A stretch of 43,088 nt of DNA, from contig DATHEH010000217.1 in assembly GCA_035318685.1 (NCBI GenBank), positions 1-43,088 of the forward strand, written 5' to 3'. This document shows positions 17,704-42,989 of the stretch, one piece after another. The stretch is from Ferruginibacter sp. (GTDB taxonomy: Bacteria; Bacteroidota; Bacteroidia; Chitinophagales; Chitinophagaceae). The translations under genes and the position numbers were made by a program. The notes beneath the pieces were generated by a model. The model was not told the DNA's origin, ran no database searches, and saw only the letters and a program-made list of their open reading frames with translations. Position 1 is the first letter of the stretch. Each line of letters begins with the position of its first letter.

Positions 17704-17709
17704 AGTTTT

Positions 17710-26622: not shown

Positions 26623-28107
26623 CTATTTTTTGGGTGGCAACGGGGGCAGTGCAATTTTTTCTACCTGTACATATTTTTTTCCGCTGGTGCCAATAACTTT
26701 CACTTTTGATCCTGCCGCGATTTCGTTTTTTTCTGTGATGGCTTCGTATATTTTGTTATTGATCTCTACCTTGCCGCTAAGCGATAATTTGGATATTACT
26801 ATTCCCACCCTGCCAACAAGCATGTTCAAATTCACGCAGGAAGGCAGGGGAGGGGAATTAATGATTTCATTGTTTTTTTTGGGTGGCAGCGCCGGAGGCA
26901 ATTTTACTGCCGGCTTTTCTGGCTCTCTTGTTTTTACCGGCGGCAAACCAGGCTTCGCAACCGCAGGAGGATCTTTTAATTCATTCCTGTCGGGTATAAC
27001 AAGAGGATGACCCGGACTAACAGCATGCACTGCATATCCCGAAGCCGCTATCCTGGAAAAGATCAGCTTCGTCGTTTCCAGGTCGTCGGCTGTTCCGATA
27101 CCTTTTACATGCGGGTATTTCTTCAATAGCTTATTGGAAAAATAAACAGTATTGATCTCTTCGCTTGCTAATAATATAGTGGTGGTTTTAACATCAAGAC
27201 CATAGGTTTTAACCAGGTCGTCAAGGGCAGTATAGATCACGCTGTCGGCCGATAAGAACAACAGCCGTTCTTCCAGGTTTCTTTCATTTACCCTGAAGTA
27301 ATAAGGCTTACCGTCTGATAAAGTGGCTTCTCCTTTTATGATAGGCGAGATATTATGCAAGAGGCCTGAAGCATAAGGTAAAATAGAGGCGATCTCCGCC
27401 TCCTTATTTATAGACAAAAAAGGGTTTTGTAAAACGATGTATTCCAGGATCATGTCGGCTAAAATGCTCACCCTTGGGTCAGAGCCCTGTCCTTCTATTT
27501 TTGTGTGGCTGACGAGACCTTCGGAAAGATCTTTGTACAGCTCTACATACAAGTTGTTATCGATACCGGTAAGCTTAATGATCGAAGCTTTATTGGTAAT
27601 GATCCTTTTTTCCTGCAACACTTCAAACAGGCTTTCATTGTATTCCACCCGCTGCACATTGGTATAGCCTGCATCCGTGAACAAGGCTTCCACCAATGCT
27701 TTTTCTTTTTCTTCCATATCCGGTTCAAACAGGAAGCGAAGCGGGAAAAGATTGCGGTAGGTTTCAATAGAATCGCTTTTGTATAGTACGGTATTGATAA
27801 AATGAGATAAGTATTTCTCTATACCATAATAAAAAAGCTGCTTTACCGGTTTCTTATTACCTGAAATGGTAAAATGGAGGCTGGGGTCTTTTACAACTTC
27901 AAAATAATTTCCAAAAGCATTCGGGTCGTTTGAATAGAATCGATCCCTGGCAATACCTCCAAAAAGAAAATCATTGCCGTTTACATAGAAGAATAAAGGA
28001 ATTTCGTTCGACTCTTTAATTACCAGCGGGATATAGGAGTTCCCTTCTGTTTGATACCAGAATGAGACCATCCGCTTTGTAATTTTTACCAGCACACAAA
28101 AATTCAT
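26623..28107 (-). CDS. Hypothetical protein: unknown (possibly degenerate Hsp70/actin-like) N-domain, Pro-rich linker, C-terminal NfeD-like OB fold
   Basis: C-terminal 'VGRVG.V...L..SGKVEI....YEA......I..G.KVKV' resembles NfeD-C; the N-domain assignment is tentative. Confidence 0.65.
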   Translation of the reverse strand: MNFCVLVKITKRMVSFWYQTEGNSYIPLVIKESNEIPLFFYVNGNDFLFGGIARDRFYSNDPNAFGNYFEVVKDPSLHFTISGNKKPVKQLFYYGIEKYLSHFINTVLYKSDSIETYRNLFPLRFLFEPDMEEKEKALVEALFTDAGYTNVQRVEYNESLFEVLQEKRIITNKASIIKLTGIDNNLYVELYKDLSEGLVSHTKIEGQGSDPRVSILADMILEYIVLQNPFLSINKEAEIASILPYASGLLHNISPIIKGEATLSDGKPYYFRVNERNLEERLLFLSADSVIYTALDDLVKTYGLDVKTTTILLASEEINTVYFSNKLLKKYPHVKGIGTADDLETTKLIFSRIAASGYAVHAVSPGHPLVIPDRNELKDPPAVAKPGLPPVKTREPEKPAVKLPPALPPKKNNEIINSPPLPSCVNLNMLVGRVGIVISKLSLSGKVEINNKIYEAITEKNEIAAGSKVKVIGTSGKKYVQVEKIALPPLPPKK

Positions 28108-28113
28108 AACAGC

Positions 28114-31100
28114 TTATACTTTTTGAATTCCTTTCAGTAAATGTTTCTCAAAAAATTTCATGCCTTCCAGGATGATGATGGGAACGATATAGTCGAACTT
28201 TTTCTGTTCTTCTTTTTTCCTTCGCTGGGCTTCTATGAAATCCGGGTCTTCTTTTACATAGCTCTCGATATTCATATCCTGGAAACCGTTCATAAAATCT
28301 GCCTGGCTCATTTTTAACCCGAACATGGAAGAAGACACTTTAAAGAACAGGTCGGCAAAGTCCATAAACCTCGGGCATGGTTGTTGTCCCTGCTGGGGCG
28401 AGCTGATAAAATATTCGCCTATATACTCCAGCATTTCTGCTGTAATAGAATTGCCGTAATCCAGGTATTTCAATTCGCCTGATGGAGCAATAACACAGAA
28501 ATTTTCTTCGCCTAATATTTCTATCGCTTCTTTATTCTTGGGTACCAAAATGGGGGTGATATGTGTGGGGATGGCCAGACCCTTGGATACTTCGTATTTT
28601 ACATCAGCATTATTTTCTTTCTTTTGTGTATTGATGTTGATGATCTGGCTGGGGAAATTAATGGGGGTGATTGTTTGCTTTGCCACCGCTTCGCCACCAA
28701 TGCCCCTGATGAACATTTTTGTGTAATAGTCATTTGCGGCAGAAGGATTAACGGCATTGAACCAGTCAAATATCCTGGCGCCCTTACCGGCAAAAGCAAT
28801 ATTTATTTTTGGCAACAGATTTTTTACTGCCGGTGGCGCATCTTCAGACTTCACTATTTCCGTTCTGAGCTTATAGGCTAACTGGCCGGCATAGTACATG
28901 ATCAAACCGGTAACATATAAATTCACGCTCATCATTTCCTTGCACTCTGCCGCAATCAGGCGATAAAAATCATCAAAATCTGCCGTCTCGAGCCTGTCAA
29001 CCACCTGTTCGAAATAATAAGGCGCCGTGTTCTCATTGAATTTATTCTCACCGGCATTCAATCCTTGTATCTTTATTTTTTTTCGTTCACATACTTTCAA
29101 TAAAACCGACTTGAAGTTTGGAGCGGACCTGGTAGCCTGGGCAACCCGTTGTGCGGCAAAGCGGATAGAGTTCTGCTTGATCATCGCCTTGCCACCGTCC
29201 ATCTGGCATAAGGCAGTAATATCTGTTGTGCTGCCCCCTATATCAAAACAAAGCACCAGTTCACCGGGCCTTACGGAATATCCGGAATTGACTAAATAAT
29301 TGGCCACAGCACAGGCTTCAGTTAAGGATTCATTATTGCTTAAAGGCTTGAAGTCAAAACGCACAGGGGCGGTTTCGGTCGCGATATCAATCACTTTTTT
29401 ATTCTTCGTTGCATTGTCATCGCCCCATCCTGCAGCAGGCGTGTTGGTGCCGCTGTTTCCCCAACCTTTGTCATCATTACCTGAACCCCATGCTGAATCT
29501 GTTGTAGCATCATTGTTTCCCCAACCGGTCTTGGTTTCTGCACTGGCCCAGGAACTACCACCGGCATCGCCAATATCCGCAAGATCAGAAGGAGGGTAAA
29601 TTTCTAAATTAACATTACTCTTGATCGGGCTTATTTCTTTAAGCGAATCCCAGATTCCCCTGTATTCACTTAACAATCCTTTACCCATTGAAGAGGGATA
29701 AGACCATTTTAAAGTATGCGGCTCGTGTCCCTCCACGAACAGCTGGGCGTATATATGCAATAGCAGGGAACTTAAATAAGCTTTCTTGTAACTTTTATCA
29801 ATACGCTGGGTTGACCATTTCATATTGTACACCAGCTCGGCCTTACCTACCCTGTTATAGCCCAGGATATACCTGTTGGCGGTAGCATTTTCAATGGGCA
29901 GGTTCTTTTCAAAACAGGGAAAGCCTCCTTTTACTACCTGGGCAAACAAAGAATCGTTTGAAATATTATCAGTATTCACCACCCGGCGGGAGTCATGGAT
30001 GGTTAAGACCGACTTGATAGAATTGGAGATGATCTCGTCATTCTGGAAAAAGAAGATCTCGTCTTCAATAGCCGGTCTCTCATCATTATTTTTTGCATCA
30101 TTTGAAAGCAATGAGATCCTCCGGTTATTGAACTTCAGGCTTTTGCAAACCTCGTTAGTGCTCCCCGAAAAATAAGCAATAGACGAATTAGTGCTTCCAA
30201 AATCAACACCTAAATAAGCGGGGGCTAAATCAACAACGGGGTTTTTAAGCATATTGGCGGGTAAGTATTTATTATTACCCGTACCATCATACCTGATAAT
30301 ACCGAAGCCACAATCCTTTCCTGCATGCGCAAACCTGATACCTTTAAAAGGCTGGTTGCTTTCATATATCTCGTACTTGTATTTATTGTCGGCCACTGCA
30401 TTGTTCGAGGCGATATGCAGCTCTACTTTTATGTTGCCATATTTTTCCGGGATGATGGCAGCTTTGCCATTATTTGCCAAATACAATGGGGCGTTTTTTT
30501 CATTCAGAATGATCCTGAAAAAATCATCATTCACATTCCCTATAAAAGGCGTGGCCTGGAACTTCGCATCATTATGCGTTATTTCCGAGAACATAAAATA
30601 CCTGTTCCATTGCTTCGAGATAAAATTTGGCCATATCAATATGTCCTGGCCAATGATCGAGTCCCTCGTTACTTTATAAATGATCTGCTTGGTGATCTCA
30701 TTACCAGTATTGGTAAACAGCTTTAATTGCACCATTAATTTTTCTCCATCCTTATCATTAGGATCATAAGTTGCAGAGATCCTCGATTTTACATTAGAAG
30801 TTTCGTCCAGGCCAACCAATGCGGTGAGGTTAGCGCCAAATACATTTAAAGCCAACGGGGTAAGCGGCAAGGTAAAGTAAGCGAAATTATTCGCCTGCCC
30901 TTTGGTGCCAGCTTCCAGTAACAGTAAAGGTTTCGACCTTAAATAGTTCTTTGTTTCCGCTCCTTCCTTCCCAAAATCTATCTGGGCAATTTCGGTCGAT
31001 TCCGGCAGCAACAGGTCTTTAGGGTCGAAAGGAATGCTTCCTTCCATTCCCAGCTCATTCGAGATCATTCCTTCGGAACCATACAATTCGGTTGAGAAAT

Positions 31101-31992
31101 TAAAAAGAAGGCCAAACGGGTAATTGAAAAGAGAACCGACCTCGGGAGGCGTTTGATTTTCTAATTTAGGATATCCTTTTGCCCCCTGGTATTTGATCAT
31201 ATCGAACATCCAGTTCTGGATGCATCCGTAAATATTACTGTAATCCGGCTTTAACAGGTCTTCCAGTCCATTAAAATTCTTTTTGAACTTATCAATATTG
31301 TTCAGAATATGCTTGGCATAGCCGTATATCTTGAACAGCTCTTCGGGCTTAAGCTCCGATTGCAAAGGATCGATGAACTTGCCGTTATTGATATTGATAA
31401 AGGGTAATTTCTCTTTGATCCGGTAAGAAACAGAAGAAAATAAAAAACAATCAGGCGAAGTGCCGCCAACTACATTTCCCTTAAAGGAAATAACATCGAT
31501 GAAAGGGATTTTATCAGCATTATTGAATAGTGACTGATCGCACCATAATGGCTGCCGCTCAAATAAAACATTGCCAAAAGCGCCCAGGGGTTCATACAGG
31601 TTTGTTGTATCGCCAATCTTCTTCGCATCAGTATATGCTAAATGAACTCTGTCAATTTGAATATCTTTATAATCCAGGGCAATGCACGCAATGAATCCTT
31701 TCCACTCACTGATCAATGATTTATAGAATCGCATCAGCCCGCCCGTTTCCGCGTCTTTATCGGTAACGGCATCCAATGCATTCCTGAACAGGTTTGCCCT
31801 TGCATAAACGGTTGGCATCCCTGAAACAATAGACCCGATATCGACAGATGAATTACCATCTTTGTCAACAGCGATTTCAGGTATTAAAATATTCTTCGTA
31901 AAATTTGGCAATTCCTTGATACTATCCCAGGCATATTTGACTCCCGGTTGAACCGTTTTAGAATTTATTGTGAGCGCTTTTATATCTGCCAT
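28114..31992 (-). CDS. Large (1292 aa) actin/Hsp70-superfamily ATPase-fold protein
   Basis: Phosphate-1 'LGVDFGSTNS', 'WSYPSS', connect-1 'TEACAVA', phosphate-2 'FDIGGSTTD', adenosine-like 'AGKGAR'. Confidence 0.8.
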   Translation of the reverse strand: MADIKALTINSKTVQPGVKYAWDSIKELPNFTKNILIPEIAVDKDGNSSVDIGSIVSGMPTVYARANLFRNALDAVTDKDAETGGLMRFYKSLISEWKGFIACIALDYKDIQIDRVHLAYTDAKKIGDTTNLYEPLGAFGNVLFERQPLWCDQSLFNNADKIPFIDVISFKGNVVGGTSPDCFLFSSVSYRIKEKLPFININNGKFIDPLQSELKPEELFKIYGYAKHILNNIDKFKKNFNGLEDLLKPDYSNIYGCIQNWMFDMIKYQGAKGYPKLENQTPPEVGSLFNYPFGLLFNFSTELYGSEGMISNELGMEGSIPFDPKDLLLPESTEIAQIDFGKEGAETKNYLRSKPLLLLEAGTKGQANNFAYFTLPLTPLALNVFGANLTALVGLDETSNVKSRISATYDPNDKDGEKLMVQLKLFTNTGNEITKQIIYKVTRDSIIGQDILIWPNFISKQWNRYFMFSEITHNDAKFQATPFIGNVNDDFFRIILNEKNAPLYLANNGKAAIIPEKYGNIKVELHIASNNAVADNKYKYEIYESNQPFKGIRFAHAGKDCGFGIIRYDGTGNNKYLPANMLKNPVVDLAPAYLGVDFGSTNSSIAYFSGSTNEVCKSLKFNNRRISLLSNDAKNNDERPAIEDEIFFFQNDEIISNSIKSVLTIHDSRRVVNTDNISNDSLFAQVVKGGFPCFEKNLPIENATANRYILGYNRVGKAELVYNMKWSTQRIDKSYKKAYLSSLLLHIYAQLFVEGHEPHTLKWSYPSSMGKGLLSEYRGIWDSLKEISPIKSNVNLEIYPPSDLADIGDAGGSSWASAETKTGWGNNDATTDSAWGSGNDDKGWGNSGTNTPAAGWGDDNATKNKKVIDIATETAPVRFDFKPLSNNESLTEACAVANYLVNSGYSVRPGELVLCFDIGGSTTDITALCQMDGGKAMIKQNSIRFAAQRVAQATRSAPNFKSVLLKVCERKKIKIQGLNAGENKFNENTAPYYFEQVVDRLETADFDDFYRLIAAECKEMMSVNLYVTGLIMYYAGQLAYKLRTEIVKSEDAPPAVKNLLPKINIAFAGKGARIFDWFNAVNPSAANDYYTKMFIRGIGGEAVAKQTITPINFPSQIININTQKKENNADVKYEVSKGLAIPTHITPILVPKNKEAIEILGEENFCVIAPSGELKYLDYGNSITAEMLEYIGEYFISSPQQGQQPCPRFMDFADLFFKVSSSMFGLKMSQADFMNGFQDMNIESYVKEDPDFIEAQRRKKEEQKKFDYIVPIIILEGMKFFEKHLLKGIQKV

Positions 31993-31997
31993 ATTAC

Positions 31998-33653
31998 TTA
32001 ATTAAAATTGAAGTTTTGAGACACAGTTATTGCATTGTAGATATGCGCCAGGAATTTTTCCTTTGTCGTATTCACCTTTTGTTCGTCTTTGGGCGACGTA
32101 TTAATTAACCTGTCAACAAAGGTTCCATACCTGTCAGCTAACAGACCGCCTTTTGGCCAATGATATTTTTCATCATTAAAAAGAGTCCCCACATCCAGTT
32201 TTTTTAATTCTGACGGGGTATCCGGAAAAGCTTTACTGTCAAACAAAAAAGAACCGGGTGCAACTGTATTCCTGATTTGGTACAACCACCCTGGTGAAAA
32301 CCGTACATTACCATTTTCATTATCAAAATGATAAGCAAACTGTTTAAAATACTCGTTAATCTCATCACATTCCGTATCTGTAATCGTACTGTATTGTGTT
32401 AATTTTTGTTTTTCACATCTTGTAATAAATCCTTTAATTCCGGAATCTCCTGTTGATGCGCCATTAATGGTTAATGAAACATGTGCCAGGGAAAAAAACG
32501 CACCTAACCTATTCGCGAAATTCTCTCCTGCCTTGTTATAATTGCCAACAAAGTCATCAAAAGAAAAATTAAACGTATTCTTCTCAAATTCCACCGCTTT
32601 ATATAAATATTGAGCTATCGCAGTATCAAAACCGTCTTTTCGTGTAAAAAAATCATACGCTGCACAGGCGCATAACAACTCTGTAATATGGCATGGATTT
32701 TTTTGAGTAGCGCCTCCGGTAATAGTTTTATGACCTGATGTTTCCTCATCGATCTTTTTGCTTTCAATGGGCCAGCCAATATGGTATAATATTTTATAGC
32801 TTTTCTGTACAGTGGGGTCGTTCTGATAAAATTGCAAAGCAGCCTGGCTGTTCAGCGGGAAAAAAGAAGAGTCTGCTATAACGCTGTTTTCCTTGGTAGA
32901 TTTCTCTTTATTATCCGGCTTTTTGAAAGTAAAATACTCGGTGAGAAGTGTCGAACCGAATTTAGCCTTTGAAAAGTCGATCGTTTCTTTACCCCCGGAT
33001 CTTGTTTGTATAAAGTCCTGCAGAGCTTTTGGAATAATGGGTATGGATGAAGCGCCGGTGCCACCGAAAATGGAACCGAAAATAAAAACACGGGCGTTTG
33101 CACCCGCAACCTTTATTTTAGAAACAAACGATTCCAATGCTCTTTCCTCGGGCTTAACATCTTTACCACTTGCTATGTTCCTGGCTGCCTCTACAATACC
33201 GTGGTACATCAACAAAGATCCTAAATGTGTCTGAGCCCTGTACCCATGAGCCAGGTTGAATTCCTGTACCGAACTATTATCTAAAAAAAGATCAGATATT
33301 AGTTTATTAGCCTTTTGCACTTCCGGAGAACCAGAAGAAATTTTAGTTATGTTTTTATAGTTTTCCCGGCCCGTACCTGAATAGTTCGTATAATATTTGT
33401 ACAAATTTAGTTTTGCAGAGAAAAAAGTATTTGCATTGGGCGTACCACCTTTAGTATTACCTGAAGATTTTACCTGGTTATACAGTGAGATCAGGTCCTC
33501 GGCTCTTTTCTTATTGCCATTGGTGGAGTCGGTATCTAACGTTAATACATCAATTTCCTGGTTATCGAACATCCCTATGGCGCATAAATGCGTAAAGGAT
33601 TCCAAACAACGCATACCGGTTCCGCCGATCGCTATTACAAATAGTTTATCCAT
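31998..33653 (-). CDS. Tubulin/FtsZ-superfamily GTPase-like protein (Tubulin_2-like)
   Basis: N-terminal 'VIAIGGTG', 'LDTD', T4-like signature 'GSIFGGTGAS'. Confidence 0.82.
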   Translation of the reverse strand: MDKLFVIAIGGTGMRCLESFTHLCAIGMFDNQEIDVLTLDTDSTNGNKKRAEDLISLYNQVKSSGNTKGGTPNANTFFSAKLNLYKYYTNYSGTGRENYKNITKISSGSPEVQKANKLISDLFLDNSSVQEFNLAHGYRAQTHLGSLLMYHGIVEAARNIASGKDVKPEERALESFVSKIKVAGANARVFIFGSIFGGTGASSIPIIPKALQDFIQTRSGGKETIDFSKAKFGSTLLTEYFTFKKPDNKEKSTKENSVIADSSFFPLNSQAALQFYQNDPTVQKSYKILYHIGWPIESKKIDEETSGHKTITGGATQKNPCHITELLCACAAYDFFTRKDGFDTAIAQYLYKAVEFEKNTFNFSFDDFVGNYNKAGENFANRLGAFFSLAHVSLTINGASTGDSGIKGFITRCEKQKLTQYSTITDTECDEINEYFKQFAYHFDNENGNVRFSPGWLYQIRNTVAPGSFLFDSKAFPDTPSELKKLDVGTLFNDEKYHWPKGGLLADRYGTFVDRLINTSPKDEQKVNTTKEKFLAHIYNAITVSQNFNFN

Positions 33654-33670
33654 AAAATGATTTTTTTAGA

Positions 33671-34006
33671 TCAGAACCAATGGCCAAGCTTGCCATTCCT
33701 GAAAATTTTGCTCAGTATAAACCCAATGATGATATATAAAACAAATCCAACTCCCGTTGCAACGGGCAGCACTTTCATATAGTCATCATACACCATTTGA
33801 TCATTATCGGGATTTGGTGCTAATACAAACCTGCCCAGCACAAAAAAAACAATCGGGTTAAGTACGGCTAATATCCAAAACCAGGCTTTTCTTTTCCCGG
33901 GATCATTTGGGTTGGAACCTCCCTTATATTGTATTGCCATTGAAATTAATGCAGCGATCAGGATCATTGCACCTGCTACTATAGCGGCGATAATGTAAGA
34001 TGTCAT
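33671..34006 (-). CDS. Small three-TM membrane protein
   Basis: Three hydrophobic helices; tight operon spacing. Confidence 0.8.
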   Translation of the reverse strand: MTSYIIAAIVAGAMILIAALISMAIQYKGGSNPNDPGKRKAWFWILAVLNPIVFFVLGRFVLAPNPDNDQMVYDDYMKVLPVATGVGFVLYIIIGFILSKIFRNGKLGHWF

Positions 34007-34040
34007 AGTATTAATTTTGGTTGATGCTTATTTAATTGGT

Positions 34041-35591
34041 TTAGGGTTTTTTAGTGTTCGCAAATTTTATGTAGTAGGAGTAAATGATCTTTCCTTTAGG
34101 GTTTATTGAAGGTTCTAGTAAAGTATTCCGAATAGCTTCTGAGAGTGATGTATTGGGTTTATCTTTTATTGTGGAAGAAGTCCATTGAAAATCTGACAAT
34201 TTGGGATTTGAATCATTAAAAATTGCATCCCCTATAACATAATCAATTCTAATGAGTGCATTTTCCTTTTTTACATTTTTGATTTTATAATTAGGGTGGA
34301 AGATTGTTTCTAATCCTATTTTAGCTGGATCATTTTTTAAATGACTACTAAATATTTCTTTGTTATAATCAAATACTTCTGCCCATTCATATTTACTCAA
34401 ATCAATAGATTTATAAATCCAAGCTTTTTTTATATCTGTAGTGTTTGTTAGATAACATTTCTCAATAATGGCGTCTTTTTTCGATTTCTCATCCCATACA
34501 AAATCTTTTTTTGAATCTCTAATTAGAACAGGAACATGGTTTTTTGCTTCAGAGCAGCGAGCATAATTTTCATAATCATCTGATACATCATAAACTTTAA
34601 CTGATACATTGCTTAATTTATATGCAGATTGATCAGATGCATTCAATAGCAAACCATTTAGAAAAAGACCAGCTTCTTTTTTTATTGAATTCTCAACGTA
34701 CTTTTCTAAATCTTTATTCCAAGGCTTATTTATACCGATTACCTCAAATGGTAATTTCTTGTCGACAGAAGAATTTAAATTATAATTTACCCATTTAGCA
34801 AATGTTTGATTTGAAATTCCAGTTTTATCTTTACCTCCATAATCGTTTGAAATATTATATGGACTATTATTTAATTCAAATACTTCCGTTTCAATACGCC
34901 CTTTAAAAGCATCTTTGATCTGTGAAACAAAACTATTTGGAGTAGGTTTTCCATGAGTAAACACCGTGAAGTAAAGGTGTTTGTCTGTTTCAATTTGAGG
35001 CTTCCTACTTTTATTTATTTCATGAAAGGAGGTATAAAAAAAAGTTATTGAATTTCCACCCCTAAGCCAATTAATAAAATATTTCTTAGGATAATCTAAA
35101 AATTGTTCAACCCTGTCATTGGTATATTCTTCAAAGTCAGTAATCAATAAAGCATCATTTGAATCCGAGGTGATTCTTATTAATGCCTTTTCAATTGGAG
35201 CCATAATATCTTTATATTCTTTTGGATCATTAATCTTATTAAAAAGCTCTGTACTCTTATATTCTAGTTTTTTAATTGTATCATTTCCCAAAGAATACCA
35301 ATCTATTTCGTCGCTTATAAGCTTATGAGCAATGGCCTGGATTATTTGACTGTTTTTTGAATTGCTTTTATATGCTTGTATCAAGCCGTCTGAAAAATCT
35401 ATATATACAGCAGGGTTACCGCTTTTTGGATTAACTGCTTCTCCCAATGAAGCATTATAATACCCTTCGATATTTTTATCGATCTCATTCAACGGTTTGA
35501 ACCCAGCCCATGGACCTGCATCCTTATCTCCACTACAGCCGGTCAATAAATAAACTGATGAAAGCAAAAGGAGAATTCTTTTTATATTCAT
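34041..35591 (-). CDS. Lipoprotein with putative vWA-like domain
   Basis: Lipobox LTGC; MIDAS-like 'VYIDFSDG' and 'ALLITDFE'. Confidence 0.7.
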   Translation of the reverse strand: MNIKRILLLLSSVYLLTGCSGDKDAGPWAGFKPLNEIDKNIEGYYNASLGEAVNPKSGNPAVYIDFSDGLIQAYKSNSKNSQIIQAIAHKLISDEIDWYSLGNDTIKKLEYKSTELFNKINDPKEYKDIMAPIEKALIRITSDSNDALLITDFEEYTNDRVEQFLDYPKKYFINWLRGGNSITFFYTSFHEINKSRKPQIETDKHLYFTVFTHGKPTPNSFVSQIKDAFKGRIETEVFELNNSPYNISNDYGGKDKTGISNQTFAKWVNYNLNSSVDKKLPFEVIGINKPWNKDLEKYVENSIKKEAGLFLNGLLLNASDQSAYKLSNVSVKVYDVSDDYENYARCSEAKNHVPVLIRDSKKDFVWDEKSKKDAIIEKCYLTNTTDIKKAWIYKSIDLSKYEWAEVFDYNKEIFSSHLKNDPAKIGLETIFHPNYKIKNVKKENALIRIDYVIGDAIFNDSNPKLSDFQWTSSTIKDKPNTSLSEAIRNTLLEPSINPKGKIIYSYYIKFANTKKP

Positions 35592-36471: not shown

Positions 36472-36516
36472 CAAAGCTAACAGGTGGGATCGTCTTTTTA
36501 TTACGGTAAACCGTAA
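36472..36516 (-). promoter_or_regulatory. Operon promoter: -7 box plus perfect palindromic operator
   Basis: TAGCTTTG (minus, 36472-36479), 21-bp gap, TTACGGT-AA-ACCGTAA at 36501-36516. Confidence 0.75.
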
Positions 36517-36606: not shown

Positions 36607-37254
36607 TTATAATATTCCTTTTTCTTTACAGAAAAGGACCAACTGCTCATTTTTTAAAAACCCGAATTCATCGCGGATCTTTTTGAGGCTTTTTTCTACC
36701 GTGCTGAGGCTTCGGTTGAGGTGATCGGCTATTTCTTTTTGCTGGTTTCCCTGTGATAATAGGCGGATAATATCGATATCGAAATCCGTGAACTCATATG
36801 CATTGGACTGTTTCACGATCTGGGCCAGCGCCCTGGGATAATATTGCTGGCCTTTTGCCAGGACATCAAATGCCGATTTCAGCTCTTTTACATCGTGTCG
36901 GGCCTTTCGCACAAAGCCGTCAATTTCGTAGTCATCGTACAACGATTTTATTTTCGCGGGTTTGATCTCTGCAGAAAAAACAAGGATCATGATATCTGGC
37001 TGCACCTCACGGGCTGCCCTGATCAGCTGAAATCCGTCTGCAATTTTTTGTGATCTTCCATCATCTTCAAAGTACAGGTCGGTGATCAGTACATCATATG
37101 GCAGTTCAGCCTTCTTAGCCATCTTAATCCTGTTCAACGCATCGTCACAATAAAAAACATAGTCGCTTTGCCTGATGTGCAATTCCTCCATTGTTTTTTG
37201 AATGGAAAGATTGGAGCTTTCCTGGTCTTCGGCTATAATTACTTTATCGATCAT
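36607..37254 (-). CDS. NarL/LuxR-type response regulator
   Basis: Receiver 'IIAED', 'LITDL', 'FVRK'; HTH 'LLSQG..QKEIA..L..S.STVEK.L'. Confidence 0.9.
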   Translation of the reverse strand: MIDKVIIAEDQESSNLSIQKTMEELHIRQSDYVFYCDDALNRIKMAKKAELPYDVLITDLYFEDDGRSQKIADGFQLIRAAREVQPDIMILVFSAEIKPAKIKSLYDDYEIDGFVRKARHDVKELKSAFDVLAKGQQYYPRALAQIVKQSNAYEFTDFDIDIIRLLSQGNQQKEIADHLNRSLSTVEKSLKKIRDEFGFLKNEQLVLFCKEKGIL

Positions 37255-38920
37255 GTTTTACGGGTTCAAGCGGAAAGCAGATCGTGATCGACGCCCCGCC
37301 CTTCTCGCTTTTTCCAAAAATAACTTCTCCGTTCAATGATTTAATACGGTTAACCGTATTCTTCAAGCCATTTCCAAATTCAACGTGGGAAGAGAAGCCT
37401 GTACCATTGTCGCTATAATAAAGGAAGGCCTTATTATCTTTCCGGGCAAACCTTATCACCACACTTTTGGCGTCACTATGTTTTTTCATATTTACCATCA
37501 TCTCACTAAGGATCAATAACAGTTCATTTCTCTGATGCATGGTAACCTGGTCCCAGAATGTTTGCTGGTTCCCCACCACGAACACTTCGGTGCGATCATT
37601 TGTAAAATCGTTCAAGAGGTCATGGATCTGGTTATCGTAATGCGGGCTGTCATCGGTTGAGATCTCTTCGTAAGATATATTCCGTGATCTTTCATACATC
37701 CCTTCGATCCTTGTCATTAGTGGTTCCCTGTCGATGGCTTTGCCGTGCTCCAGTTCATTCATAATCCTGTACAACCCGTTTGCTACAACATCGTGCACTT
37801 TTTGAGAGGTCTTAAGCTTAGCGTCCCTTATCTCATTTTCAGCATCCTGCTTGATCTTCCTTCTGCGTTTGGCATACCAGGCCCACAGCAGGATAATGAT
37901 CCCGATGGCAAGTAAAGCCACGCCATAGATCAATACCCGTTGCTTTGTAATATGTTCCTGTAATGCAAGGTTGTCGGCCTTGCTTTTCTGAGCATCGTAT
38001 CTTATGAGTGCGAACCGGTTCACCGTTGTATCCCTTGATAACTGAAGACTGTCGTCAAGTCTTTTGTATTCCTCGTACCAATACGTTTTTAAAGAGGAAG
38101 CGCTGTTCAACCTGATCAGTTTATCGATGGCTTCGAGAATATCACTAGGGCTTTGGTTCTCTATCGCTTTTTCCCGCATTTTTTGTGCATACCATAATGC
38201 TGAATCAGGATTTTCTTTTGCATAATAGTCGGACAGATGAGCATAGCTGGCGTTCAATCCCAAATTATTATTACTGTCGGTCCTTATTTTTAATGCTTCC
38301 CAGAATTCTGGCAAAGCAGGATAGCCGGGATTCTGGAGCCATTTTGTTTTGGCCCTGTTATCGATTATCCTGGCAACAAGCTGTTTGTCGGCTGGCTTCA
38401 AAGCGAATGTTGAATCATAAACAGCAATGGCATCATTATAGCTTCCCTTCTTTTGAAATGCTGTCGCCTTACTATTCATTATTTCAAGCAGGTAACCTGA
38501 CCCTGTAAAAGCAGGTATCGCGTTATTATAAAAATTGATGGCCTCATCGTACAGCTTTAAGTCCAGGCTCACATTCCCTAATATGCTGTATGTATATCCA
38601 ATATCCTCGCGATGCTTTTCATTGAGCGGGTCCAGGGTACGAATAGCGCCGGCAAGGCTTTCCTGGGCACCATACAGGTCACCAATATTCCACTGCATTT
38701 CGCCCATATACCGGTATGCTTTGCCTTTTTTAAGGGTATCATCCGGGTTATTAATATAGCGGTTGAACATCAGGAAGGCAGAATCCAACTGTCCATAATA
38801 CATCAGTCTATAGCCACGCTCATAATCCGTGTATTTGCTTTTACTGCTTTGCGACCTGGTGCTTAAGCTCAAAAGCACAATAAAACATGCTGTTAAGAAT
38901 AAGTGATTTGATGATTTCAA
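37244..38920 (-). CDS. TPR-containing membrane sensor histidine kinase (HisKA_3/NarX-like)
   Basis: TTG start; signal peptide; extracytoplasmic TPR-like helices; one TM; 'KVHDVVAN', 'EMMVNMKKHS', 'DNGTG', 'GNGLKN'. Confidence 0.9.
   Translation of the reverse strand: MKSSNHLFLTACFIVLLSLSTRSQSSKSKYTDYERGYRLMYYGQLDSAFLMFNRYINNPDDTLKKGKAYRYMGEMQWNIGDLYGAQESLAGAIRTLDPLNEKHREDIGYTYSILGNVSLDLKLYDEAINFYNNAIPAFTGSGYLLEIMNSKATAFQKKGSYNDAIAVYDSTFALKPADKQLVARIIDNRAKTKWLQNPGYPALPEFWEALKIRTDSNNNLGLNASYAHLSDYYAKENPDSALWYAQKMREKAIENQSPSDILEAIDKLIRLNSASSLKTYWYEEYKRLDDSLQLSRDTTVNRFALIRYDAQKSKADNLALQEHITKQRVLIYGVALLAIGIIILLWAWYAKRRRKIKQDAENEIRDAKLKTSQKVHDVVANGLYRIMNELEHGKAIDREPLMTRIEGMYERSRNISYEEISTDDSPHYDNQIHDLLNDFTNDRTEVFVVGNQQTFWDQVTMHQRNELLLILSEMMVNMKKHSDAKSVVIRFARKDNKAFLYYSDNGTGFSSHVEFGNGLKNTVNRIKSLNGEVIFGKSEKGGASITICFPLEPVKHDR
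37315..37360 (-). promoter_or_regulatory. Internal promoter/operator inside the kinase CDS, upstream of the regulator gene
   Basis: TATTTTTG (minus, 37315-37322), 21-bp gap, perfect 18-bp palindrome AATACGGTTAACCGTATT (37343-37360; aligned 16-mer starts at 37344). Confidence 0.7.
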
Positions 38921-38942
38921 GAAATCCGGTTTTTCTAAATAT

Positions 38943-38974
38943 AAAAAAAAGGCAGGGATTATTCTGCCTTTTTT
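38943..38974 (-). terminator. Intrinsic terminator (potentially bidirectional) between the peptide and kinase genes
   Basis: A8-GGCAG-n8-CTGCC-T6, 9 bp after the peptide stop codon. Confidence 0.8.
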
Positions 38975-38983
38975 ACAATTGAA

Positions 38984-39163
38984 TTAACCCGCGGGTGGTG
39001 GCGGAGGTGGCGGAGGTTTGGGCGTACCCCCGGTTTCGCCGCCGGTGTCTGAGTCAGGAGTAGGGGTAGTTGTATGTATCAGGGTACAGCTACCATGATT
39101 GTTGGTTGTATGGCCTGGGTTTGGGCAAAAGAATGACGCAAACCAGATAATGATGCTTATCAT
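38984..39163 (-). CDS. Unannotated 59-aa exported-type Pro-rich peptide (candidate signal precursor)
   Basis: Translated by hand: MISIIIWFASFFCPNPGHTTNNHGSCTLIHTTTPTPDSDTGGETGGTPKPPPPPPPPAG*. AT-rich leader, own -7 box and terminator; shorter than the ORF-track cutoff. Confidence 0.8.
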   Translation of the reverse strand: MISIIIWFASFFCPNPGHTTNNHGSCTLIHTTTPTPDSDTGGETGGTPKPPPPPPPPAG

Positions 39164-39366
39164 TGTTTGATTATTTAAATTGTTAGAAAAATTGCCCGTG
39201 CCGGGTAGCGAACCTGGCCGAGACTGGTTTGTAAGAAGCGCTTCTTACCTTGGGAAGGAAGAGCGTTGATCGCAGTTTGGTCAGCAACTTCCCATGCTGA
39301 CTAACCTCGCTGCGATCTTTGCTCTCAGCAGATCTGTTGGTTTGATTTTGACTTACCAAATGATCA
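39164..39366 (-). other. Putative structured 5' leader (about 200 nt) of the peptide gene
   Basis: -7 box TATGTTTG at 39372-39379 (minus); nested stems 39268-39317, palindrome 39231-39248, hairpin 39200-39218. Confidence 0.5.
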
Positions 39367-39436
39367 TGATGCAAACATATGATCGGTTAAGAGCCTGATC
39401 AGCAAACGATTCCGATAATTCCAATCATTCCAATCA

Positions 39437-39481
39437 TTCCGGTTAACCGTAATTTGGTTTTCCAATTATGCAATAATTTTC
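39437..39481 (+). promoter_or_regulatory. Palindromic operator plus -7-like box for the 39536 gene
   Basis: TTCCGGTTAACCGTAA (39437-39452), 21-bp gap, TAATTTTC (39474-39481, one mismatch to TAnnTTTG). Confidence 0.6.
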
Positions 39482-39535: not shown

Positions 39536-40519
39536 ATGCCGTTGCTGTTTGTAGACTATACCAATTTGATATTAAAAGAGTATGAAGCAAGAAGGGAAGC
39601 CAACAGGCTTTCTCGTTTACAGCATCCAACTACAGTTAATATCAGGCAGGAATGCCTTAACGTTTATAATGAAAAGGTCAGAACAGAAAAGCCGCTTGAA
39701 GAAAACACCTTACGTGCTTTTTTTGGTGTATCCCCCACTGAAAATGATTTTGCTGAAATCATAATAAATTACCCAGCAGATAAATTCAGACCACTTCAAA
39801 ATTTTATCAAAGGAGAAATAAAAAACCCGGCCTTGCCTACGGTGGAGTTGCTAGCCTGGTTGATCGATTTTAAGCCCAGACCCTTAGCATATGCACAAAG
39901 GATACTAGCTAATGGAGGCCAATATGAAGATACGTTAGACTCTAAAGGGCAACAGGTAAAAACTGAATGCTCTGATGAAGTCATTATAGTCCCGGAAGAT
40001 CTGTTAGGGGATGTGAGAAAAATTGGGATCTCTTATGAAGAATCTAATAAACAAAGCACGAATCCAAAGATCAACTTTGTTACTGTGATCGGTGTGACCA
40101 TCGCAATTCTTTGTGGAATGGTATCTGTTTTCAGTCAGTATACAAGATCAGAAAAAGATGTCTATGAAACCACGAATAGCGGCTGCATGCAATGGGTAGA
40201 TGATCATTTTGAAAGGGTATCTTGTGATGAACAACGGAACGGAACTCCCGTACTACCGATGAATGAAAAAAAGGTAAAGAATTTTAGAATGATCACAAGG
40301 CAAGACACGATGACGAAGTGGTCGATCGGGAAAGCTTATTATATAAAAGATAAGGGAACAATTAAGTATTACACAGAAGCTGGCAACTATCCTGAGGACC
40401 TTAACCGGCCTTTAAAAGTACTTTCATCTTATATGTTCGATAAATACTTGCGTAAAAAGGAAACTGAAGGCAACGACTCTTTAACTGAGCAAAACATGAA
40501 GCTCACAGGTAACAAATAA
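39536..40519 (+). CDS. Single-TM hypothetical protein divergent from the peptide/two-component locus
   Basis: Soluble N-domain ('DKFRPL.NF...VELLAWLIDF.PRP'), one TM, C-domain with 'CMQW...C'. Confidence 0.8.
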   Translation: MPLLFVDYTNLILKEYEARREANRLSRLQHPTTVNIRQECLNVYNEKVRTEKPLEENTLRAFFGVSPTENDFAEIIINYPADKFRPLQNFIKGEIKNPALPTVELLAWLIDFKPRPLAYAQRILANGGQYEDTLDSKGQQVKTECSDEVIIVPEDLLGDVRKIGISYEESNKQSTNPKINFVTVIGVTIAILCGMVSVFSQYTRSEKDVYETTNSGCMQWVDDHFERVSCDEQRNGTPVLPMNEKKVKNFRMITRQDTMTKWSIGKAYYIKDKGTIKYYTEAGNYPEDLNRPLKVLSSYMFDKYLRKKETEGNDSLTEQNMKLTGNK

Positions 40520-40529: not shown

Positions 40530-40829
40530 ATGAAGGTCATTTCAATTTTATTCTTGTCTTTGATACTCTGTTCCTGTTACAATAACGAAAACAGATCGGA
40601 AAAAATAGATGAACTGAACCGGCGTATTACCCGACTTGAGCAACGAATTGATTCCTTATTGGGTATACAAAATAATGGATCAAGTGGATTGGATATTAAG
40701 AGTAAAGACAATTCCGGTTCTTACGGTAATACCGCGGTAAGTGGTCGTTGCCAGTCCATCACTAAAAAAGGTTCGCAATGCAGAAGAAAAGCAAAAGCTA
40801 ATGGCCATTGCTGGCAGCATGGTGGGTAA
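40530..40829 (+). CDS. Small lipoprotein with coiled coil and C-terminal CCCH motif (DUF5763-like)
   Basis: Lipobox LCSC; 'RCQSITKKGSQC......GHCWQH'. Confidence 0.8.
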   Translation: MKVISILFLSLILCSCYNNENRSEKIDELNRRITRLEQRIDSLLGIQNNGSSGLDIKSKDNSGSYGNTAVSGRCQSITKKGSQCRRKAKANGHCWQHGG

Positions 40830-40928
40830 CGCAATATGCTTTAAATCATTTTTCTTTAAGTTCGAAAACAGAGAGCGAGAAAATTTTGTCTGATTAATTT
40901 AAGAACTTCAACCCAAATAATTATCAAT

Positions 40929-41282
40929 ATGTTCGCATTGAGTCATAAGCATCTTTTTTTACTTCTTATCTGGTTAATGCCGGCCTTACTAAAAGCACAA
41001 ACAGTTTATAAAACACCCTCGGGGAAAAAATATCATTTAGCTTCCTGTAGAATGGTAAAGAATGTTTCAGAGGAAATTACCATTGAAAAAGCTGTTGACA
41101 TTGGCTTGGAGCCCTGCAAGATCTGTAGTCCACCTGTCTCTTACGGATCAACAACCAAAACCAAAAAACCACAGGGCCAAAATACTACTGTACGATGCGA
41201 GGGTTTAACCAAAGCCGGAACCCGCTGTAAGCATATGACACGTATAGCAAATGGATATTGCTATCAACATCAGCCTGAGTAA
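40929..41282 (+). CDS. Exported Cys/His-rich protein (Ada-metal-binding-like plus DUF5763-like motifs)
   Basis: 'VYKTPSGKKYH...C...PCKIC' and 'C...TKAGTRC......GYCYQH'. Confidence 0.8.
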   Translation: MFALSHKHLFLLLIWLMPALLKAQTVYKTPSGKKYHLASCRMVKNVSEEITIEKAVDIGLEPCKICSPPVSYGSTTKTKKPQGQNTTVRCEGLTKAGTRCKHMTRIANGYCYQHQPE

Positions 41283-41294: not shown

Positions 41295-42086
41295 ATGACC
41301 CTCAAAAGAAAGATCCATGAAATTTTAGATCCAACAGAAGGCGGAAGTTTACCGGACAGAATCGTAAATAGCTTCCTGGTTATACTTATCCTATTAAACA
41401 CTGTTGCAGTCATTCTGGAAACCGTAGAAAATATTTATCTACCGCATAAAAATCTTTTTAAAGCTTTTGAAATTTTTTCTGTCATCGCTTTTTCAATTGA
41501 GTACTGCCTAAGAATTTGGACATGCACTGAAATCGAAAGATACAGGCATCCTGTTACCGGAAGGATTAAATACATGGTAAGTACTAGTGCCATAATTGAT
41601 TTACTGGCAATTCTACCTTTTTATTTACCCTTATTTGCTAGTTATGATCTGCGGTTTATCAGGATATTTCGTTTACTTAGATTCTTCAGGTTTTTTAAGC
41701 TGGCAAAGTATCTGAATGCATCACAAATGATAAGAAACGTTTTTACGACAAAAAAAGAAGAGCTGGTCCTGAGTTTTGTCATTACATTGTTCCTAATCAT
41801 ATTTGCTTCCAGTGTCATGTACTATACTGAACATGATGCACAACCTGAAAAGTTTTCAAGTATCCCAGAAACCATGTGGTGGAGTGTTGCGACTTTAACC
41901 ACAGTAGGTTACGGTGACACATATCCAATTACCGGGCTCGGGAAATTTTTAACAGCCTGCATTTCAATATTAGGAATTGGCATGTTCGCTCTGCCTGCAG
42001 GGATTTTAGCGTCGGGATTTTCAGATGAATTTAAAAAGCTGAAAAAAGAAAAAAATATTTGCCCGCATTGTAATAAGGAAATATAA
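41295..42086 (+). CDS. 6-TM voltage-gated-type potassium channel
   Basis: Selectivity filter TVGYGD; Arg-rich S4 'RFIRIFRLLRFFRFFK'; C-terminal CPHC. Confidence 0.93.
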   Translation: MTLKRKIHEILDPTEGGSLPDRIVNSFLVILILLNTVAVILETVENIYLPHKNLFKAFEIFSVIAFSIEYCLRIWTCTEIERYRHPVTGRIKYMVSTSAIIDLLAILPFYLPLFASYDLRFIRIFRLLRFFRFFKLAKYLNASQMIRNVFTTKKEELVLSFVITLFLIIFASSVMYYTEHDAQPEKFSSIPETMWWSVATLTTVGYGDTYPITGLGKFLTACISILGIGMFALPAGILASGFSDEFKKLKKEKNICPHCNKEI

Positions 42087-42281
42087 TGATTTCACTGGTA
42101 CAGTGAACCCGTCCGCTGACAGGTTAAGAAAATTTAAAAATTAAATCTGAAAATTCCGTAATGCAGTAATGCTGATAATGGATCCGGTTTAAGTATAGCT
42201 GTAATTCAGAAGCAGATGGAAATATAATTAGTTATATTTAATGGAAACCTCATTCAAGCTTTTGGCGATGCTTGATATCTT

Positions 42282-42415
42282 TTCCCAGCAAAGTCTATCA
42301 ATGAGCCTTGCAGTTTTAGCTGAGGATGTTGTGTATTTGAACAAATTCTCTTATTCTTGTTTCCCAGCAACGTCTCTCAACGAGCCTTGTAGTTTAGCCT
42401 GGGACGTTGCGTCTT
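42282..42415. repeat. Two diverged direct repeats of about 55 bp, 79 bp apart
   Basis: TTCCCAGCAA.GTCT.TCAA.GAGCCTTG.AGTTT... begins at 42282 and 42361. Confidence 0.75.
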
Positions 42416-42527
42416 CAAGGCAGTTGGTTCCAGCAAGAGCAGGTAAAAGTTATTAATATGTACCTGGTGAATAGGCCTGGTCTTCTTTAGGGCTTAAGCT
42501 TTTGAAACTTAAATTCTATATTTACCC

Positions 42528-42989
42528 ATGCAAAAGATCCTGTACGTGGATATGGATAATGTGCTGGTGGATTTCAAAACCGGTATAGACAAGCTGGATG
42601 AAAACTTAAAACTTCAATACGCAGATCGCCTGGATGAGACGCCTGGCATTTTTGGCTTAATGGATCCCATACCTGATGCTATTGATGCATACCAGGAGTT
42701 GAGCAGATCTTTCAACACCTATATTCTCTCCACCTCGCCCTGGAATAACCCCTCGGCCTGGCATGATAAGATAGTCTGGGTGCAAAAACATTTGGGTGCT
42801 GAAGCGCACGGCCCGGCATATAAAAGGCTGATCCTGTCTCACCACAAAAATCTTAACCATGGAGATTTCCTGGTTGACGACAGGGAAAAGAACGGGGCAG
42901 ACCGGTTTACCGGTGAGCTTATCTTATTTGGCTCAACAAAATTTCCGGACTGGAAAACAGTAAAAGGCTATTTGCTGGATAGAAAATAA
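42528..42989 (+). CDS. NT5C-like 5'(3')-deoxyribonucleotidase (HAD)
   Basis: 'YVDMDNVLVDF', 'ILST', 'K..W', 'GDFLVDDR'. Confidence 0.88.
   Translation: MQKILYVDMDNVLVDFKTGIDKLDENLKLQYADRLDETPGIFGLMDPIPDAIDAYQELSRSFNTYILSTSPWNNPSAWHDKIVWVQKHLGAEAHGPAYKRLILSHHKNLNHGDFLVDDREKNGADRFTGELILFGSTKFPDWKTVKGYLLDRK

What the first reader, a model, noticed from the sequence alone, without database searches (positions are those of the whole stretch)
36607..39379. Candidate peptide-signalling (quorum-like) system: hidden peptide, TPR kinase and NarL-type regulator
Seen: a 59-aa ORF missing from the ORF track, with a hydrophobic N-terminus ending in Cys, a polar spacer and a 'DTGGETGGTPK-P8-AG' tail. It has its own -7 box and terminator and lies directly upstream of a kinase whose extracytoplasmic sensor is TPR-like. 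TPR domains bind peptides, and precursor-kinase-regulator cassettes underlie Gram-positive agr/com signalling (established). Inference: the processed tail is the kinase ligand or inhibitor, giving a density- or damage-sensing switch in a Gram-negative phylum.
Basis: partly seen in the sequence, partly recalled or inferred. Interest (0 to 1): 0.88.

Follow-up and report, generated by a model that had tools for sequence, protein, structure and literature searches.

The report
Peptide ligand for Bacteroidota TPR kinase
A conserved 59-residue protein is encoded just ahead of a sensor kinase in a recurring four-gene cassette of soil and water Bacteroidota, and its short tail co-varies with the kinase's predicted peptide groove, so it is likely the signal that switches on a neighbouring, probably protective, set of stress and defence genes.

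Summary
The 59-aa ORF is under purifying selection (17 of 17 pairs), and a homologue precedes 96 of 130 related kinases across four Bacteroidota families.

The unit is larger than reported: a divergent membrane protein, a pseudoknotted RNA leader, the peptide, the TPR kinase and a NarL/LuxR regulator. A palindrome (TTACGG-N4-CCGTAA) follows the regulator in 93 of 120 loci, 21 nt before a -7 box in 81 of those 93, and here heads a Ter/tubulin/nuclease operon.

The conserved part of the peptide is the DTGGETG core, not the poly-Pro. Core residues co-vary with TPR-groove residues in antiparallel order (E43 with residue 187, z 8.2; rho -0.78). Spacer-less 30-aa and four- to six-core precursors favour a clipped ligand.

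It is not agr/com: wrong kinase and regulator class, no exporter in the cassette, no pherotype diversity.

The scan noted this cassette twice before on other DNA. Neither short note shows the covariation register, regulator box, pseudoknot or multi-core precursors. Ten paper searches found no description.

The parts
38984..39163 (-). Peptide precursor gene, 59 aa: short uncharged hydrophobic head, dispensable spacer, core, Pro-rich end
39017..39049 (-). Conserved core D39-K49 (DTGGETGGTPK), predicted ligand of the TPR groove
39164..39372 (-). Structured 5' leader: long hairpin (about 39258-39326) whose loop GGGAAG (39288-39293) pairs with CTTCCC (39252-39257) as a pseudoknot, a hairpin at 39231-39248, and a GC hairpin before the start codon; no Rfam match
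39372..39379 (-). -7 promoter box TATGTTTG of the peptide transcript (TTTG lies 23 nt upstream)
39409..39440 (-). Four GGAAT direct repeats at 9-nt period, predicted site of the divergent protein
39437..39481 (+). Second regulator box (39437-39452, one mismatch) followed 21 nt later by TAATTTTC (39474-39481): predicted regulator-driven promoter of the divergent gene
39536..40519 (+). Divergent 327-aa membrane protein: helical N-terminal domain (1-125), TM helix (about 181-205), C-terminal beta domain with invariant Cys217 and Cys230; no Pfam family; predicted membrane-bound transcription regulator
38945..38974 (-). Intrinsic terminator between peptide and kinase genes
37244..38920 (-). Sensor histidine kinase, 558 aa: signal sequence, extracytoplasmic TPR superhelix with conserved N112/N149/N150/R184/N188/H228, TM 326-350, His376 and HATPase boxes intact
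36607..37254 (-). Response regulator, 215 aa, REC (Asp59) plus LuxR/GerE-type HTH
36472..36516 (-). Palindrome TTACGG-N4-CCGTAA (36501-36516), 21 nt, -7 box TAGCTTTG: predicted regulator-activated output promoter; best-scoring site in the genome
23023..36435 (-). Predicted output operon of 11 co-directional ORFs of 100 aa or more: HsdR-N-type nuclease, lipoprotein, membrane protein, tubulin-like protein, 1292-aa and 494-aa unknowns, two TerD, OmpA-like, TerC, staphylococcal-type nuclease
   Evidence: no exact -7 box in the gaps

Best explanation
The 59-aa ORF is a conserved precursor whose DTGGETG core is likely exported, clipped from its hydrophobic head and bound in the groove of the neighbouring kinase's TPR domain, which would activate the kinase and, through the regulator, likely switch on the adjacent stress and defence operon. 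Shown: conservation, selection on the protein, four-gene linkage, residue covariation and the conserved DNA and RNA motifs. Inferred steps: (1) The divergent membrane protein binds the GGAAT repeats and sets peptide transcription in response to an envelope-side cue. (2) The pseudoknot leader and the terminator let peptide mRNA exceed kinase mRNA. (3) The core lies extended and antiparallel along TPR1-6, with E43 near residue 187 beside invariant N188. (4) His376 passes phosphate to Asp59. (5) The regulator binds TTACGG-N4-CCGTAA 21 nt upstream of -7 boxes at the output operon and at the divergent gene, closing a feedback loop. It works best as a damage-alarm relay and amplifier; whether the core also reaches neighbouring cells is about even odds.
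For: Linkage: peptide and divergent gene are both present in 89 and both absent in 33 of 130 kinase loci, with 8 discordant. Loci picked by the RNA motif alone carry the peptide in 107 of 111, the kinase in 67 of 73 and the divergent gene in 64 of 68; the 4 peptide misses are chance matches in GC-rich coding DNA. Selection: pN < pS in 17 of 17 pairs. Groove: N188 149/150, N149 141/150, R184 133/150, N112 132/150, H228 131/150; nearest folds are LGN-type TPRs solved with extended peptides. Covariation over 130 pairs: top pair is core position E/D/N with residue 187 (E-S 53, D-T 31, E-D 26, N-N 6, other 14; z 8.2); 7 of the top 15 pairs fall in 25 pre-defined groove columns of 260; core order runs against TPR order (rho -0.78). 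The signal part of the same peptides gives 1 of 15 against 7 of 15 for the core on the same 116 rows. Independent contrasts go the same way in about 5 of 7, never the opposite way. Clipping: spacer length is free, down to three 30-31 aa precursors with none; anchor type switches between lipoprotein (32 of 33 type B, 27 of them net acidic just after Cys vs 13 of 72 kinase lipoboxes) and uncharged head; two precursors carry 4 and 6 cores. Output: palindrome after the regulator in 93 of 120 loci (0.7% of shuffles), 21 nt from a -7-like box in 81 of 93; the two best genome sites are 36501 and 39437. His376 is in 131 of 131 kinases and the acceptor Asp motif in 113 of 121 regulators. GGAAT arrays of 3 or more occur with 58 of 67 class-I and 0 of 22 class-II divergent proteins.
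Against: No direct evidence of expression, processing, binding or sign. The independent-contrast test is short of significance (7 pairs on supported branches, median p 0.0625). Distance-level covariation of groove columns is no higher than random TPR columns (partial r 0.154 vs 0.129 +/- 0.091). On the 73 full-length rows only 4 of 15 top pairs are in the groove, and 3 of 60 control sets reach that. Groove positions come from TPR register, not from a complex model. 33 kinase loci were scored without the peptide yet keep the groove residues and 20 of 30 keep the output box, so the kinase can persist without its own peptide. No conserved cleavage site or dedicated protease was found. DNA binding by the divergent protein rests on weak XRE/POU likeness (Z <= 3.9) and on co-occurrence among kin. 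The upstream box is present in only 62 of 149 loci, with a strict -7 at 21 nt in 23, so the feedback loop is not universal. The protective role of the cargo is inferred from family names.
Confidence: 0.55

Rival explanations
1. The small protein stays membrane-anchored in the same cell as a kinase accessory (CpxP-, MgrB- or LiaF-like logic). Its tail occupies the TPR groove and holds the kinase off or on until envelope damage removes or moves it.
For: It explains the covariation and linkage equally well. Type-B members are lipoproteins (32 of 33 with Cys) and 75 of 161 type-A members have a Cys after the head. The core is shared across families rather than strain-specific. The cassette has no exporter or maturase. 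An earlier scan note (e1-5275780) reached this view.
Against: Distance from anchor to core varies from none to about 50 residues, and anchor type switches. Four- and six-core precursors exist. The acidic residues after Cys in type B resemble the surface-export signal (PMC5080379 passages), which would put an intact protein on the wrong side of the outer membrane. A 12-residue uncharged head is short for a stable membrane anchor (inference). Loss of an obligatory inhibitor in many intact kinase loci would leave a large operon on.
Confidence: 0.27
2. It is a classical density-sensing pheromone system like agr, ComCDE or ComQXPA: steady secretion, kin-specific receptor, autoinduction.
For: Precursor-kinase-regulator order; a second regulator box in the cassette's own control region in 62 of 149 loci; receptor-ligand covariation defining E/D/N types; peptide-less kinases that could listen in (4 of 5 such genomes showed no peptide or divergent gene elsewhere with these profiles).
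Against: Kinase and regulator are NarX/LiaS- and NarL-like, not the LytTR class of AgrC/ComD (PMC8895600 passages). The core is conserved over four families, unlike hypervariable pherotypes (recalled). The upstream box faces the divergent gene, not the peptide gene. The cassette carries a second membrane-spanning protein with a predicted extracytoplasmic domain, which suggests an input other than cell density.
Confidence: 0.12
3. The peptide's partner is the divergent membrane protein, or the ORF is only a translated leader serving the RNA structure, and its place beside the kinase is historical.
For: Peptide, leader and divergent gene are lost together while kinase, regulator and box remain. 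Covariation with the divergent protein's outer domain was not tested.
Against: Core residues, not signal residues, co-vary with kinase groove columns in ordered register. The ORF keeps an export-type head and pN < pS.
Confidence: 0.06

Closest known systems
Porphyromonas gingivalis FimS-FimR (PMC11053733, passages read)
   Same: Bacteroidota sensor kinase with a periplasmic multi-TPR domain; TPR residues are needed for sensing; the authors propose a polypeptide ligand and state the signal is unknown.
   Different: No adjacent peptide, leader or divergent regulator in the passages seen; output is fimbriae. FimS was not aligned here, and most families of the phylum sample had no match to this kinase at 1e-30 (23 of 301 genomes matched), so orthology is not claimed.
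RRNPPA receptors and their propeptides (Rap-Phr, PlcR-PapR, Rgg-SHP, AimR; PMC9765709, abstract start and one passage)
   Same: Small exported propeptide gene beside a TPR receptor; a short linear core bound in the TPR groove by conserved Asn residues (groove chemistry recalled).
   Different: RRNPPA receptors are cytoplasmic and need re-import, and occur in Firmicutes. Here the TPR is the extracytoplasmic domain of a membrane kinase; no RRNPPA chain was among the fold hits listed.
Bacillus ComQXPA
   Same: Peptide, kinase and NarL-type regulator in one cassette (ComP/ComA class recalled).
   Different: ComP senses through a polytopic membrane domain and ComX is prenylated by ComQ (recalled). 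This cassette has a TPR sensor with one TM after it and no ComQ-like gene.
Staphylococcal agr and streptococcal ComCDE (PMC8895600 passages)
   Same: Precursor-kinase-regulator gene logic with feedback.
   Different: Those are LytTR-family pairs with dedicated processing or export; none of that is here.
Kinase accessory proteins: CpxP/NlpE-CpxA, MgrB-PhoQ, RcsF, LiaF-LiaS (recalled); PorA-PorXY (PMC12152298, listing and abstract start only)
   Same: A small envelope protein encoded or regulated with a kinase and acting on its sensor domain.
   Different: No sequence family match. The small protein here has a short conserved linear core, repeated in some members, not a folded domain or a full TM helix.
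ToxR/CadC-type membrane-bound regulators (recalled), for the divergent protein
   Same: Cytoplasmic helical domain, one TM helix, extracytoplasmic domain with a conserved Cys pair.
   Different: No Pfam or clear fold match; two N-terminal domains without detectable likeness to each other are used.

Membership tests
agr / ComCDE | LytTR-family response regulator | tested here: not met
   Regulator matches REC plus GerE/LuxR HTH and RcsB/NarL-type models, no LytTR
agr / ComCDE | AgrC/ComD-type polytopic kinase with HATPase_c_5 | tested here: not met
   One TM after a TPR domain; best kinase matches MctS, NarX, LiaS, DesK
agr / ComCDE | Dedicated maturase or exporter (AgrB, ComAB) in the cassette, and a double-glycine or thiolactone precursor | tested here: not met
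   None among the window's ORFs scanned or seen in the 4-kb flanks of L001-L006 (read by eye). Residues before GG co-vary with the receptor, which argues against cleavage at GG. The rest of the genome was not searched for an exporter.
ComQXPA | NarL-type regulator with NarX/LiaS-type kinase | tested here: met
   all matches are below family cut-offs
ComQXPA | ComQ prenyltransferase gene next to the peptide gene | tested here: not met
   The neighbour is the divergent membrane protein, with no Pfam family
RRNPPA | Small exported propeptide gene adjacent to a TPR receptor | tested here: met
   96 of 130 loci
RRNPPA | Cytoplasmic receptor with N-terminal effector domain | tested here: not met
   TPR lies between a signal sequence and a TM helix of a histidine kinase
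RRNPPA | Mature peptide binds the TPR groove | tested here: inconclusive
   Covariation supports it; no structure or binding data
FimS-like TPR sensor kinases | Periplasmic multi-TPR sensor on a histidine kinase of Bacteroidota | tested here: met
   FimS architecture
FimS-like TPR sensor kinases | Sequence orthology to FimS | not tested
   FimS sequence was not fetched
Functional two-component pair | Phospho-His, N/G boxes and acceptor Asp intact | tested here: met
   H376, N477, D504, G506 in 131 of 131; acceptor motif in 113 of 121
Quorum sensing (functional sense) | Signal accumulates outside and output depends on density | not testable with these tools
   needs culture experiments
Bacteroidota surface lipoprotein | Lipobox Cys plus acidic export signal | tested here: not met
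   The window's peptide has no basic n-region, F-F before Cys13 and PNPGH after it. The feature is met by 27 of 32 type-B relatives.
XRE/HTH membrane-bound regulator (divergent protein) | Recognisable HTH domain | tested here: inconclusive
   XRE/POU/HipB rows at Z 2.7-3.9 only; RpiR E 0.65 for class II
Known Rfam RNA families (leader) | Match to a curated model | tested here: not met
   No match over the leader at E <= 1 in the window or E <= 0.5 in 10 related loci

The most novel reading that the evidence does not exclude
Free-living Bacteroidota have their own cell-to-cell peptide alarm. A membrane-bound damage sensor drives a pseudoknot-stabilised precursor, the released core crosses to neighbours of several families and binds a periplasmic TPR kinase, and Ter, nuclease and restriction-type defence cargo is switched on community-wide. 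Peptide-less kinases act as eavesdroppers, and E/D/N core types are dialects.
Probability: 0.3. Interest if true: 0.93.

Novelty: new variant of a known kind. Interest (0 to 1): 0.78.

Why it matters
The ligand of Bacteroidota periplasmic TPR kinases is an open question (stated for FimS in PMC11053733). This cassette supplies a named ligand, a predicted binding register with a swap-testable pair (core E/D with residue 187), and a ready reporter (the palindrome promoter). If the core is released, it is a linear-peptide pheromone read by a two-component system in a Gram-negative phylum, a form known mainly from Gram-positive bacteria. It would also link signalling to Ter and anti-phage cargo in common soil and water bacteria (kinase in 52 of 101, 44 of 400, 16 of 61 and 16 of 81 genomes of four families). 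The leader is a candidate new structured RNA.

Tried and rejected
Complex prediction of core with TPR was not available: no verdict. No RNA holder listed; four DNA runs gave only contig pieces, so nothing on expression. A direct protein search with the peptide found only itself. No cassette, leader or kinase in viral contigs, phages or plasmids. No Rfam family. The sigma-70 scan is uninformative for this phylum (6 found vs 7.6 expected). Fold searches of the divergent protein gave no clear match, and its C-terminal domain was barely tested; the Atlas gave only unnamed Bacteroidota clusters and two later Atlas calls did not complete. An IQ-TREE run did not finish; FastTree was used. Partial Mantel test showed no groove-specific excess. 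Covariation at residue 191 did not survive independent contrasts. The Riemerella system in PMC5399024 is PhoP/PhoR-like with no TPR mention: rejected as a match. A paper on Ter-linked operons recalled from memory was not held under the id tried. Rejected ideas: cleavage at the GG as in bacteriocin leaders (upstream residues co-vary with the receptor); poly-Pro as the active part (length free; many cores end in PPRK or similar); the 63-aa TTG ORF over the leader (39183-39374), set aside because the conserved features there are base pairs, though its reading frame was not tested formally. Rows left out: L008-L011 (weak partial hits), L107 (no kinase ORF recovered), L052 and L078 (too little upstream DNA); 20 of 150 pairs without an anchorable core were left out of the covariation. 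Eight automatic peptide calls were rejected and five added by eye. One 'orphan' (L042) later proved to have peptide and divergent gene 1.1 kb further upstream; other orphans had only about 1.5 kb of flank examined.
Full report
OBSERVATION. The ORF at 38984-39163 (-) encodes 59 aa exactly as described. A Bacteroidota-type -7 box (consensus TAnnTTTG, recalled) lies at 39379-39372 and a terminator at 38945-38974. The kinase (558 aa) has a signal sequence, a TPR superhelix, one TM helix at 326-350 and a NarX/LiaS/DesK-like kinase core. The regulator has REC plus a LuxR/GerE HTH. Each of the genes is single-copy in this 88%-complete genome. The closest titled relatives are Ferruginibacter and other Chitinophagales MAGs at 60-65% identity.

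THE PEPTIDE IS A REAL, CONSERVED GENE. The kinase was found in 23 of 301 genomes of the phylum, 44 of 400 of the own family (0 of 4 of the same genus), and 52 of 101, 16 of 61 and 16 of 81 genomes of three other families. I read those three as Flavobacteriaceae, Weeksellaceae and Sphingobacteriaceae from record titles and annotations. Of 130 testable loci, the window's own included, 96 have a small export-type ORF just upstream (eight automatic calls rejected and five added by eye). pN is below pS in 17 of 17 pairs, about as strongly as in the kinase, and motif codons vary synonymously. Among 194 distinct precursors (30-164 aa), 169 have PP in the last 20 residues. The core consensus is DTGG[ED]TG[HQ]IPP. 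There are 161 with a short uncharged hydrophobic head (K/R in the first 12 residues in only 6; Cys at 10-17 in 75) and 33 with a basic signal peptide, 32 of these with Cys. No Pfam or NCBIfam family fits.

THE UNIT IS A FOUR-GENE CASSETTE. A divergent 327-aa membrane protein (39536-40519) travels with the peptide: both present in 89 loci, both absent in 33, peptide only in 7, divergent only in 1. Peptide presence changes 19 times on the kinase tree, so loss is repeated; kin are not independent. Its model shows a helical N-domain, a TM helix and a beta domain with two invariant Cys, with only weak XRE/POU likeness (Z <= 3.9). Two N-domain classes without detectable likeness to each other exist. 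An array of three or more GGAAT repeats, mostly 9 nt apart, occurs with 58 of 67 class-I and 0 of 22 class-II proteins. In one kinase clade, class-I members with arrays (L028, L085) sit beside class-II members without (L102, L103). I infer that it binds these repeats.

RNA LEADER. The 209-nt leader folds at z -4.3; 72 of 89 homologous leaders have z < -2 against mononucleotide shuffles. A purine hexamer in the hairpin loop with its complement just 3' of the stem occurs in 83 of 96 peptide loci, 0 of 34 peptide-less loci and 0.4% of shuffles. Two of its pairs show double changes (8 and 2 of 70 sequences). The 70 rows, taken from the 83, were chosen for having the pairing, so the pairing percentage is by construction; the flanking helices show further double changes. 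Rfam has no match. Picking 118 metagenome loci by the RNA pattern alone gave the peptide in 107 of 111, the kinase in 67 of 73 and the divergent gene in 64 of 68 testable loci; the four peptide misses are chance matches in GC-rich coding DNA. Its function is inferred: mRNA stabilisation or translation control.

OUTPUT. TTACGG-N4-CCGTAA (up to 2 mismatches) follows the regulator gene in 73 of 90 peptide loci and 20 of 30 peptide-less loci (0.7% of shuffles), 21 nt before a -7-like box in 81 of 93. In this genome the two best sites are 36501 and 39437; four other high-scoring sites checked lack the promoter geometry. The first heads 11 co-directional ORFs (HsdR-N-type nuclease, tubulin-like, TerD x2, OmpA-like, TerC, nuclease), beyond which lie RmuC, type I R-M, AbiH and PDC-S42. 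Cargo in relatives varies: HsdR-N, TerB-like, DUF1508 and small Cys/His proteins in 49 of 121 loci by motif (62 of 104 first genes were scanned). The second site faces the divergent gene; such a box occurs in 62 of 149 loci, with a strict -7 at 21 nt in 23. That the regulator binds this box is inference from position and co-inheritance.

LIGAND-RECEPTOR EVIDENCE. Polar residues at groove positions of successive TPRs are nearly invariant (N188 149 of 150; N149, R184, N112, H228 87-94%). The nearest folds are LGN-type TPRs solved with extended peptides. Over 130 of 150 non-redundant pairs, the top APC-corrected pair is core E43 with residue 187 (z 8.2): E goes with S or D, D with T, N with N. 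Seven of the top 15 pairs lie in 25 groove columns fixed beforehand out of 260, and core order runs opposite to TPR order (rho -0.78). The signal part of the peptide gives 1 of 15. Against this: independent contrasts are few (about 5 of 7 same way, none opposite, p 0.0625; column 187 ranks first of 280 over 12 contrasts). The partial Mantel test shows no groove excess, and on 73 full-length rows the enrichment (4 of 15) is matched by 3 of 60 controls. I put direct contact at about 0.85.

FREE OR TETHERED. For clipping: no spacer in three 30-31 aa precursors, four and six cores in two others, switching anchors, and acidic residues after Cys in 27 of 32 lipoprotein-type members vs 13 of 72 kinase lipoboxes, like the surface-export signal of PMC5080379. 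For a listener role: peptide-less kinases keep groove and box, and 4 of 5 such genomes showed no peptide or divergent gene elsewhere. For tethering or within-cell action: lipid anchors, no exporter or protease in the cassette, and a core shared across families. The window's own peptide lacks the acidic export signal.

COMPARISON AND NOVELTY. It works like an RRNPPA propeptide-TPR pair wired to a two-component system. It fails membership of agr, ComCDE, ComQXPA and RRNPPA on tested features (see membership table). The nearest studied protein architecture is FimS, whose ligand is unknown. Ten full-text searches returned no description of this cassette; subscription papers are mostly outside the library and supplements were not read. 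I read passages of PMC11053733, PMC5080379, PMC5399024, PMC9765709 and PMC8895600, and only listings or abstract starts of the rest. Two earlier scan notes describe the same cassette on other genomes. One favours a built-in partner over a free pheromone; the other reports the leader and the divergent protein, which I had seen before the look-up. They are not independent support.

VERDICT. Observation confirmed; interpretation partly supported; new variant of a known kind; interest 0.78. Best explanation 0.55, tethered accessory 0.27, classical quorum 0.12, other partner 0.06. The cell-to-cell alarm reading has probability 0.3 and interest 0.93 if true.

Noticed in passing
window 10792-22101 (-): Defence cluster downstream of the Ter operon: RmuC, type I restriction-modification M/S/R with PDC-S42, AbiH, RhuM and a PD-(D/E)XK gene inserted.
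   Followed up: partly
window 26623-35591 (-): Tightly packed lipoprotein, membrane protein, tubulin-like protein, 1292-aa and 494-aa proteins ahead of terD-terD-ompA-terC; three of the large proteins have no family or only a short domain match.
   Followed up: partly
window about 22800-23013 (-): Small Cys/His-rich exported-looking ORF of about 70 aa. The same motif class follows the regulator in 23 of 121 loci, and a second small 'HEVH' class in 16 of 121; the examples scanned had no Pfam family.
   Followed up: partly
window 40530-41282 (+): Two small exported-looking proteins with DUF5763-like Cys/His ends follow the divergent gene; similar genes follow it in L001 and L004.
   Followed up: no
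L115 oriented 576-1070 and L121 758-1147: Multi-core precursors: six tandem near-identical cores in L115, and four cores with diverged spacers in L121. Neither has the standard leader or a detected divergent gene.
   Followed up: partly
L187, L219, L238: Minimal 30-31 aa precursors with the core directly after the hydrophobic head.
   Followed up: partly
L160: Rearranged cassette: regulator, then divergent gene, leader, peptide and cargo, with no kinase directly after the peptide.
   Followed up: partly
L041, L043; L112; L025; L042: Leader largely deleted (L041, L043); an apparent second peptide copy upstream (L112); frameshifted kinase with intact peptide (L025); a gene inserted between peptide and kinase (L042).
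   Followed up: partly
G000:C81 3897-4547: Second copy of the HsdR-N-type nuclease, 52% identical, elsewhere in the genome.
   Followed up: no
window 6192-7967 (+); 41295-42989 (+): TPR-containing S41 peptidase 30 kb away, not shown to be linked; ion-channel and NT5C genes beyond the divergent gene.
   Followed up: no
G183, G195, G267, G647: The kinase was not found in 4 of 4 other genomes of the same genus, so the cassette is patchy and probably island-borne.
   Followed up: no
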